Below are positions 1-184 of a DNA stretch of 7,019 nucleotides, piece after piece (the stretch's first letter is position 1; each line of letters begins with the position of its first letter). The notes beneath the pieces were generated by a model that saw only the letters and a program-made list of their open reading frames with translations, ran no database searches and was not told the origin of the DNA. The DNA is from a virus (taxonomy: Duplodnaviria > Heunggongvirae > Uroviricota > Caudoviricetes). A program made the position numbers and the translations under genes. Where the stretch lies: IMG/VR virus record IMGVR_UViG_2534681998_000017, positions 1 through 7,019 of that record. The stretch is one strand, 5' to 3'.

Positions 1-184
1 GGGAAAACGCACGATGTGCTGACCGGAAGTGATGACGGTCGCCACAGCAACACGTCTCTGGCGTGGGGGCTGGCGTGCAGTTTAACCCGACCGAATCCGT
101 GGCCATTGATATTGCTTATGAAGGCTCCGGCAGTGGCGACTGGCGCACTGACGGTTCATCGTGGGTGTCGGCTATAAATTCTGA
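1..184 (+). pseudogene. lom: 3' end of a lom-like gene (Ail/Lom/OmpX-family outer-membrane beta-barrel), reading frame broken twice
   Basis: Three consecutive frames each carry part of one C-terminus: frame 1 (1-68) GKTHDVLTGSDDGRHSNTSLAWG; frame 3 (69-155) AGVQFNPTESVAIDIAYEGSGSGDWRTDG; frame 2 (155-184) FIVGVGYKF then TGA. Joined, this matches my recollection of the lambda Lom C-terminus ending in an aromatic residue, as expected for this barrel family. The frame changes fall at a G-run (65-69) and a T-run (155-156). The gene start lies left of the window. Confidence 0.65.

What the first reader, a model, noticed from the sequence alone, without database searches (positions are those of the whole stretch)
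1..184. lom-like conversion gene broken by two single-base deletions 90 bp apart
The lom-like C-terminus can only be read by changing frame twice: frame 1 to frame 3 at the G-run 65-69, then frame 3 to frame 2 at the T-run 155-156. Each change looks like loss of one base from a homopolymer. The resulting frame-2 tail, FIVGVGYKF*, restores the aromatic C-terminal residue needed for outer-membrane barrel assembly. Either this virulence-associated moron is inactivated in this lysogen, or the assembly has homopolymer errors.
Basis: partly seen in the sequence, partly recalled or inferred. Interest (0 to 1): 0.45.

Follow-up and report, generated by a model that had tools for sequence, protein, structure and literature searches.

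The report
Probable assembly errors in lom tail
The two missing bases that break this prophage outer-membrane gene are really in the record, but they lie at the repeat-filled start of a short draft contig, on sites where the gene's many copies differ, so they are most likely assembly errors.

Summary
Window 1-184 is the last 61 codons of an Ail/Lom gene, readable only as frame 1, then frame 3 at G-run 65-69, then frame 2 at 155-156. The repaired tail equals lambda Lom's last 25 residues.

The window is an entire 7,019-bp draft contig, AMTN01000077.1 of E. coli 8.0416. It starts inside lom, which has 8-12 copies in O157 genomes, and ends inside IS1203.

Positions 1-3435 are identical to Sakai prophage Sp8 except at four sites. 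These are exactly the sites where the Sp8 and Sp15 lom copies differ between -18 and +498. Two are the missing bases and two carry the Sp15 base.

The second deletion occurs in no other public sequence I searched. The G5 variant recurs on many backgrounds, often among other "frameshifted" multi-copy tail genes, but also in assemblies of sequencing runs from several samples. No other indel occurs in the remaining 6.5 kb, although 36 other homopolymer runs of 5 or more lie there.

Best reading (about 0.8): mixed-paralog consensus error at a contig end, over an intact lom. A real double pseudogene (about 0.1) cannot be excluded without reads. Interest is low.

The parts
1..184 (+). The 3' end (codons 139-199) of an Ail/Lom-family prophage outer-membrane protein gene. 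It is readable only in three successive frames. The N-terminal 138 codons lie beyond the contig start.
   Evidence: There is 99.2% DNA identity to annotated lom genes of VT1-Sakai and many O157 prophages, and the only differences are the two gaps.
65..69 (+). Site A, a G5 run. Sp8-type copies have GGGGGG and Sp15-type copies have GGGGAG (the third position of a Gly codon). One base is missing, which shifts frame 1 to frame 3.
   Evidence: G5 is also present in about 25 of 4,623 complete E. coli records, in 10 IMG/VR contigs and in a protein cluster of 195 sequences.
153..157 (+). Site B, GG|TTC. Relatives have GGT/GGC/GGG followed by TTC, a degenerate Gly third position and the only three-allele column in the lom tail. 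One base is missing, which shifts frame 3 to frame 2.
   Evidence: This deletion was found nowhere else.
172..178 (+). Two substitutions relative to Sp8, C172 and A178. Both are the Sp15-type paralog alleles.
1..498 (.). A multi-copy zone that is at least 99% identical among lambdoid prophages. Sp8 and Sp15 differ here at only four sites. This zone forms the left tip of the contig.
   Evidence: O157 genomes hold 8-12 places matching window 1-260. The window equals the whole contig AMTN01000077.1.
211..238 (+). An intrinsic-terminator-like hairpin followed by a T-run, between the lom stop and the stf start.
249..3164 (+). The side tail fibre gene stf (971 aa). It is intact and identical to Sakai Sp8 ECs_1650.
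6699..7019 (+). An internal fragment of IS1203 that forms the right tip of the contig. It is joined to the P2-type tape-measure gene through a 10-bp microhomology, GGCGGTGATG.
   Evidence: The junction is reproduced exactly by Logan contig SRR26901194_430.

Best explanation
The gene is an ordinary lom (Ail/Lom eight-stranded outer-membrane barrel) of an Sp8-type lambdoid prophage in an O157:H7-like E. coli. The two missing bases are most likely errors of the draft assembly's consensus, not mutations.

Shown: the window is a complete 7,019-bp contig whose first ~500 nt lie inside a sequence present in 8-12 nearly identical copies per genome.

Inferred: at such a contig tip, reads from several lom copies are piled together. 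Where the copies disagree (G/A at site A; T/C/G at site B; T/C at 172; G/A at 178), the consensus caller either dropped the base or took another copy's base. If the reads were flow-based, averaging run lengths of GGGGAG with GGGGGG, and of GGCTTC with GGTTTC, would give exactly GGGGG and GGTTC. I did not see the sequencing method, so this detail is untested.

On this reading the real gene encodes the intact tail ...AWGAGVQFNPTESVAIDIAYEGSGSGDWRTDGFIVGVGYKF.
For: 1. The window is byte-identical to contig AMTN01000077.1 of GCA_000304835.2, E. coli 8.0416. The lesions are therefore 65 and 155 nt from a contig end.

2. Window 1-3435 equals Sakai Sp8 except at four sites. These are all of the sites where Sp8 and Sp15 differ between -18 and +498. 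Two are gaps and two carry the Sp15 base.

3. Site B is the only three-allele column among the lom tails collected.

4. The site-B deletion is absent from 5,426 complete E. coli genomes, IMG/VR, JGI metagenomes and the GTDB representative genomes. In 5.8 billion protein clusters it appears only in this contig's own 37-aa ORF.

5. There is no other indel in window 185-6708 against nine draft contigs and a complete genome, and the 36 other homopolymer runs of 5 or more are untouched. Draft contigs with the same gene arrangement carry an intact 199-aa lom.

6. G5 sits among other 'frameshifted' multi-copy tail genes in three O157 complete assemblies. Lom tails with two or more frameshifts are singletons in the protein collection.

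7. Control: a real inherited frameshift in this window, the T-gene 1-nt deletion at 5860 relative to PV15-279, is shared by the typical O157 genome compared and by eight of the nine draft contigs.

8. General principle: residual errors persist in repeats because read placement there is unreliable (PMC8812927, abstract, seen).
Against: No reads or quality values were available, so nothing here is direct proof.

The G-run frameshift is also found in Logan assemblies of sequencing runs, with identical proteins on 21 and on 16 contigs. The G6 run is therefore also a genuine mutational hot spot, and site A could be real.

Mosaic lom alleles exist naturally, for example L017 with TTT plus C172/A178. 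That weakens the argument from coincidence with paralog-variable sites.

Once a gene is broken, a second lesion is neutral.

The right-hand junction of the same contig looked suspicious but is confirmed independently, so the contig is not generally unreliable.
Confidence: 0.8

Rival explanations
1. A real pseudogene. In this lysogen lom suffered two independent 1-bp deletions (G6 to G5, then a second within 90 bp). The product is about 196 aa with a nonsense 35-residue tail. It lacks the last part of the barrel and the C-terminal Phe, so it cannot be inserted into the outer membrane.
For: The sequence as deposited says so. G-run frameshifts of lom do occur in nature-like data: a cluster of 195 sequences includes Logan members seen on many contigs. 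Prophage accessory genes decay readily. The same contig carries a genuine inherited frameshift in the P2-type tape-measure gene.
Against: Two indels lie within 90 nt while the next 3.2 kb are identical to Sakai Sp8, which is very improbable for independent neutral events over so short a divergence. The second deletion is unique in every collection searched. Both lesions lie at a contig tip inside a multi-copy repeat and on paralog-variable sites.
Confidence: 0.1
2. A mixed case. The G5 frameshift at site A is a real allele, arising at a recurrent hot spot or imported from a G5 paralog by gene conversion together with C172/A178. Only the site-B deletion is an assembly error.
For: An Sp15-type tail with G5 and C172/A178, differing from the window only by the C at site B, exists in three other assemblies: L002, L015 and L024. 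G5 is seen in multi-sample Logan data.
Against: The G5 examples in O157 complete genomes sit amid other frameshifted tail genes, which suggests error there too. Nothing distinguishes site A from site B in position: both are at the contig tip on paralog-variable sites.
Confidence: 0.08
3. Recoding or phase variation. The G-run acts as a slippery or contingency tract, and full-length Lom is made by ribosomal or transcriptional slippage, or is switched on and off by run-length change.
For: The run length at this site varies widely in public data, giving WGLACSL, WELACSL and WGGLACSL variants.
Against: Two successive shifts would be needed, and the second site (GGTTC) is not slippery. A run of 5-6 G is short for a contingency locus or for polymerase slippage. 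About 99.8% of the matching lom places in complete genomes (25 of 4,623 records, 13,247 places) lack G5.
Confidence: 0.02

Closest known systems
Bacteriophage lambda Lom (PDB 9wso_C) and the Ail/Lom family (Pfam PF06316; relatives OmpX and Yersinia Ail)
   Same: The repaired tail is identical to lambda Lom over the last 25 residues. It fills Pfam profile positions 139-199 and ends in the aromatic Phe. The gene lies immediately upstream of the side tail fibre gene, as in lambda and the O157 Sp prophages.
   Different: As deposited, the reading frame is broken twice. Only profile positions 139-165 are encoded in the incoming frame. The N-terminal 138 codons are not on the contig.
lom of Sakai prophage Sp8 (ECs_1649) and of Sp15/VT1-Sakai (BAB19561.1)
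   Same: The window is identical to Sp8 from position 1 to 3435 apart from four sites. It is identical to the Sp15 copy over 1-260 apart from the two gaps.
   Different: The window is a patchwork: Sp15-type bases at 172 and 178, Sp8-type sequence from 499 onward, and one base missing at each of the other two sites that distinguish the copies.
Residual consensus errors in repeated regions of bacterial assemblies (e.g. Polypolish paper, PMC8812927) and 'frameshifted' multi-copy prophage tail genes in O157 assemblies
   Same: Single-base indels confined to a multi-copy prophage segment. The same G5 call appears in NADC 5570/86-24/6565, PNUSAE008512 and AC-3 next to other frameshifted tail genes.
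   Different: Those cases are in long-read complete genomes. This one is in a 2012-era short draft contig whose method I could not see.

Membership tests
Ail/Lom outer-membrane beta-barrel family (PF06316) | A significant match to the family profile | tested here: met
   The repaired 61 aa score 109.9 bits (cut-off 23) over profile positions 139-199 of 199. The as-is frame-1 product scores 24.6 bits over positions 139-165 only.
Ail/Lom outer-membrane beta-barrel family (PF06316) | A C-terminal strand ending in an aromatic residue (Phe), needed for barrel assembly | tested here: not met
   As deposited, the product ends ...ALTVHRGCRL. The motif FIVGVGYKF* is present only in frame 2. It is met only after both bases are restored.
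Ail/Lom outer-membrane beta-barrel family (PF06316) | A complete barrel with signal peptide (about 199 aa) | not testable with these tools
   The contig starts at codon 139.
Ail/Lom outer-membrane beta-barrel family (PF06316) | Position in the lambdoid late region between J and stf | tested here: met
   stf follows 64 nt downstream. In Sp8 and VT1-Sakai, J lies directly upstream. J itself is off the contig.
Genuine inherited pseudogene | The same lesion in independent assemblies of related strains | tested here: not met
   Site B occurs in no other sequence. Site A occurs elsewhere, but on many unrelated backgrounds. By contrast, the T-gene deletion at 5860 is shared by the typical O157 genome compared and by eight of nine draft contigs.
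Consensus artefact of collapsed paralogs at a contig end | Lies in multi-copy sequence close to a contig end | tested here: met
   The window is the whole contig. The lesions are at nt 65 and 155. O157 genomes hold 8-12 copies.
Consensus artefact of collapsed paralogs at a contig end | The lesions coincide with sites that differ between the paralogs | tested here: met
   All four deviations from Sp8 are the four Sp8/Sp15 differences in the range -18 to +498. Site B has three alleles.
Consensus artefact of collapsed paralogs at a contig end | Reads or quality values show mixed or low-confidence calls at the sites | not testable with these tools
   No read data, quality values or assembly-method comment are available here.
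Programmed frameshift or phase-variable tract | A slippery or long repeat tract at each shift site | tested here: not met
   Site A is only G5 and site B is GGTTC. Two shifts would be required.

The most novel reading that the evidence does not exclude
The G-run in the penultimate strand of lom (TGG GGG GCT) is a genuine, recurrently hit on/off switch of a surface-exposed prophage protein. On this reading the contig records a real off-state that later picked up a second lesion. Run-length variants on many allele backgrounds, including identical frameshifted proteins recovered from many independent run assemblies, would then reflect selection to shed Lom, for example under immune or phage pressure, rather than noise.
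Probability: 0.06. Interest if true: 0.45.

Novelty: not a real feature. Interest (0 to 1): 0.07.

Why it matters
The practical value is as a caution. A gene that looks like a decayed virulence-associated moron is most likely intact. The deposited annotation, a 37-aa 'hypothetical protein EC80416_2400', is a by-product of the break.

Counts of pseudogenes and statements about Lom presence in STEC prophages that rest on draft contigs or unpolished repeats will be inflated at this locus.

If the lesions were real, they would only add one more inactivated accessory gene to a prophage-rich genome, which is unremarkable.

The one mildly interesting by-product is that the lom G-run varies in length across very many public sequences. 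Some of that variation appears to be real.

Tried and rejected
1. Simple homopolymer-error model. I rejected it as the sole cause. The other 36 runs of 5 or more in the contig are intact, including T6 at 232-237 and T7 at 5418-5424. Against two of the three paralog alleles the missing bases are not part of a run.

2. Source search by exact pattern for the site-B deletion in IMG/VR, JGI metagenomes and GTDB representatives found nothing.

3. Exact look-ups of the 41-aa ORF (63-188) and of the 329-aa tape-measure fragment found nothing, because the gene caller used other start codons. The 302-aa version led to relatives. The source was finally found through a protein search with the frame-3 peptide.

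4. I suspected that the tape-measure::IS1203-internal junction was a chimera. This was rejected, because Logan contig SRR26901194_430 reproduces it exactly.

5. I suspected that base A at 6050 was private to the window. This was rejected: it is shared with FDAARGOS_293, GCA_000155005.1 and three Logan samples.

6. I considered the phage 24B_1 small RNA reported downstream of lom (PMC4426718). It lies in a 428-bp spacer of a different phage arrangement, so I did not pursue it.

7. Literature searches for the strain and its WGS accession returned nothing, so the sequencing and assembly method remains unknown to me.

Full report
**What is in the sequence.** Window 1-184 encodes the end of an Ail/Lom protein, but in three frames.
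- Frame 1 reads GKTHDVLTGSDDGRHSNTSLAWG and then nonsense to a stop at 175-177.
- Frame 3 reads GAGVQFNPTESVAIDIAYEGSGSGDWRTDG.
- Frame 2 reads FIVGVGYKF* at 155-184.

With one base restored at each junction, the 61 residues match Pfam Ail_Lom positions 139-199 of 199 at 109.9 bits. The as-is frame-1 product matches only positions 139-165, at 24.6 bits. The repaired tail equals the last 25 residues of lambda Lom, PDB 9wso_C.

**What the missing bases are.** Every close relative has 262 nt where the window has 260.
- Against VT1-Sakai (prophage Sp15) the window is otherwise identical. It lacks an A (GGGGAG) and a C (GGCTTC).
- Against Sakai prophage Sp8 it lacks a G from G6 and a T from TTT. 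It also differs at 172 (C for T) and 178 (A for G).
- A third allele has GGGTTC at the second site.

Both gaps therefore remove the degenerate third base of a Gly codon that varies between lom copies. 'Homopolymer loss' is true for only one of the possible parental alleles.

**Context.** Window 1-3435 is identical to Sakai Sp8 except at those four sites. The four sites are all of the positions at which the Sp8 and Sp15 copies differ between 18 nt upstream of the window and position 498. From 499 onward the window is Sp8-type. O157 genomes carry 8-12 places that match window 1-260.

The rest of the window holds:
- an intact stf (971 aa) and a tfa;
- a low-GC hexapeptide acetyltransferase;
- P2-type gpU and a P2-type tape-measure gene;
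- an IS1203 fragment.

**Where the window comes from.** A protein search with the frame-3 peptide returned a 37-aa 'hypothetical protein EC80416_2400 [Escherichia coli 8.0416]' on a contig of 7,019 nt. That contig is AMTN01000077.1 of GCA_000304835.2, and it is byte-identical to the window.

The window is therefore a whole short draft contig. It begins inside multi-copy lom and ends inside multi-copy IS1203. The two lesions are 65 and 155 nt from the contig's start.

**How common the lesions are.** The site-B deletion was found in none of the following:
- 5,426 complete E. coli genomes;
- IMG/VR;
- JGI metagenomes;
- GTDB representative genomes.

In 5.8 billion protein clusters it occurs only in this contig's own ORF.

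The G5 variant is different:
- It occurs in about 25 of 4,623 matching complete-genome records.
- It occurs in 10 IMG/VR contigs on at least six haplotype backgrounds.
- It occurs in a protein cluster of 195 distinct sequences.

In three O157 complete assemblies G5 sits among other 'frameshifted' multi-copy tail genes. Lom tails with two or more frameshifts are singletons. These facts point to error. However, some single-frameshift variants are seen on 21 and on 16 Logan contigs. The G-run is therefore also a genuine hot spot.

**Internal controls.** Against nine draft contigs with the same gene order, and against a complete O157 genome, the window has no other indel from 185 to 6708. The other 36 homopolymer runs of 5 or more are intact. 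Those draft contigs carry an intact 199-aa lom.

A true inherited frameshift exists on the same contig. The tape-measure gene lacks one base at 5860 relative to PV15-279. That lesion is shared by the typical O157 genome compared and by eight of the nine draft contigs, and is annotated 'frameshifted' in a complete genome. This is how a real lesion behaves, and the lom lesions do not behave so.

**Explanation.** The most economical reading is a consensus artefact. At the tip of a contig that runs into a repeat at least 99% identical among copies, reads from several lom copies are stacked. At the four positions where they disagree, the caller twice took another copy's base and twice dropped the base.

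Shown:
- the lesions lie at a contig end;
- they lie in a multi-copy repeat;
- they coincide with paralog-variable sites;
- site B is unique in public data;
- errors are absent from the unique part of the contig.

Inferred:
- the read mixture itself;
- the idea that flow-space averaging would yield exactly GGGGG and GGTTC. I could not see the sequencing method.

Residual errors in repeats are a recognised problem of assembly polishing (PMC8812927).

I give this reading about 0.8. A real double pseudogene gets about 0.1. It would require two indels within 90 nt while 3.2 kb alongside stay identical to Sakai. A real G5 plus an erroneous site B gets about 0.08. An Sp15-type tail with G5 that differs from the window only at site B exists in three other assemblies. 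Recoding or phase variation gets about 0.02.

**Comparison and novelty.** The gene is a standard member of the Ail/Lom family in the standard lambdoid position. The break is most likely not a biological feature. Even if it were real, an inactivated prophage accessory gene would be ordinary. Only reads of strain 8.0416 anchored in Sp8-specific stf, or a Sanger amplicon, can settle it.

Noticed in passing
window 1-7019: The window is the complete GenBank WGS contig AMTN01000077.1 (7,019 bp) of Escherichia coli 8.0416, GCA_000304835.2. Its deposited annotation calls window 75-188 a 37-aa hypothetical protein (EC80416_2400), which is simply the middle-frame piece of lom.
   Followed up: yes
window 3164-3742 (crossover within 3351-3435): The tfa gene is a hybrid. 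It is Sp8-type up to 3350 and P2-like-remnant-type from 3436, with 85 identical bases between. This joins lambdoid lom-stf to the P2-type acetyltransferase-gpU-tape measure block. The same hybrid protein is listed in 141 blocks of the assembly collection (draft contigs), yet no complete E. coli genome out of 5,426 has the junction. It is either a recurrent assembly chimera or a rearrangement missing from finished genomes.
   Followed up: partly
window 6699-6708: The P2-type tape-measure gene is fused to an internal position (about nt 230) of IS1203 through a 10-bp microhomology, GGCGGTGATG, and not at an IS end. Relative to PV15-279 this removes 848 bp. Logan contig SRR26901194_430 matches window 3671-6773 at 100%, so the junction is real or shared.
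   Followed up: yes
window 5860 (ORFs 5016-5717 and 5729-6664, minus strand): The P2-type tape-measure gene carries a 1-nt deletion relative to PV15-279. The deletion is conserved in the typical O157:H7 genome compared and in eight of nine draft contigs, and is annotated 'frameshifted' in FDAARGOS_293. This is a genuine inherited pseudogene.
   Followed up: yes
window 3786-4358, minus strand: A low-GC (0.35-0.40) hexapeptide-repeat serine O-acetyltransferase gene lies between tfa and gpU of the P2-like remnant. It looks like a cargo gene.
   Followed up: no
lom G-run (window 65-69) in other records: P0057 cluster, P0174-P0186: The run length at this site varies widely in public data. Tails WGLACSL (G5), WELACSL (one G lost from the GGGGAG allele) and WGGLACSL all occur. 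There are 195 distinct sequences in one cluster, and some are seen on 16-21 Logan contigs. This suggests a real mutational hot spot in addition to errors.
   Followed up: partly
L002 7001-7261 versus L029 and L030 5966-6230: The lom of the same espJ/tccP-carrying prophage has an Sp15-type tail in one O157 assembly (NADC 5570/86-24/6565) and an Sp8-type tail in two others (PNUSAE008512, AC-3). All three have G5. This is either gene conversion between prophages or paralog mix-ups in assemblies.
   Followed up: no
proteins P0016 and P0017; P0054 and P0056: Other odd lom products exist in public data. Some fuse the N-terminus of J to the out-of-frame lom tail, implying a J-lom deletion; these occur in Logan, NCBI and ENA data. 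Others are Lom proteins of 259-299 aa with an internal tandem duplication.
   Followed up: no
window 1632-2027 (stf residues ~462-590): There are three tandem copies of a ~132-nt unit that encodes the Phage_fiber_2 repeat ([25 protein letters not shown]). Self-matches within stf are about 78% identical.
   Followed up: no
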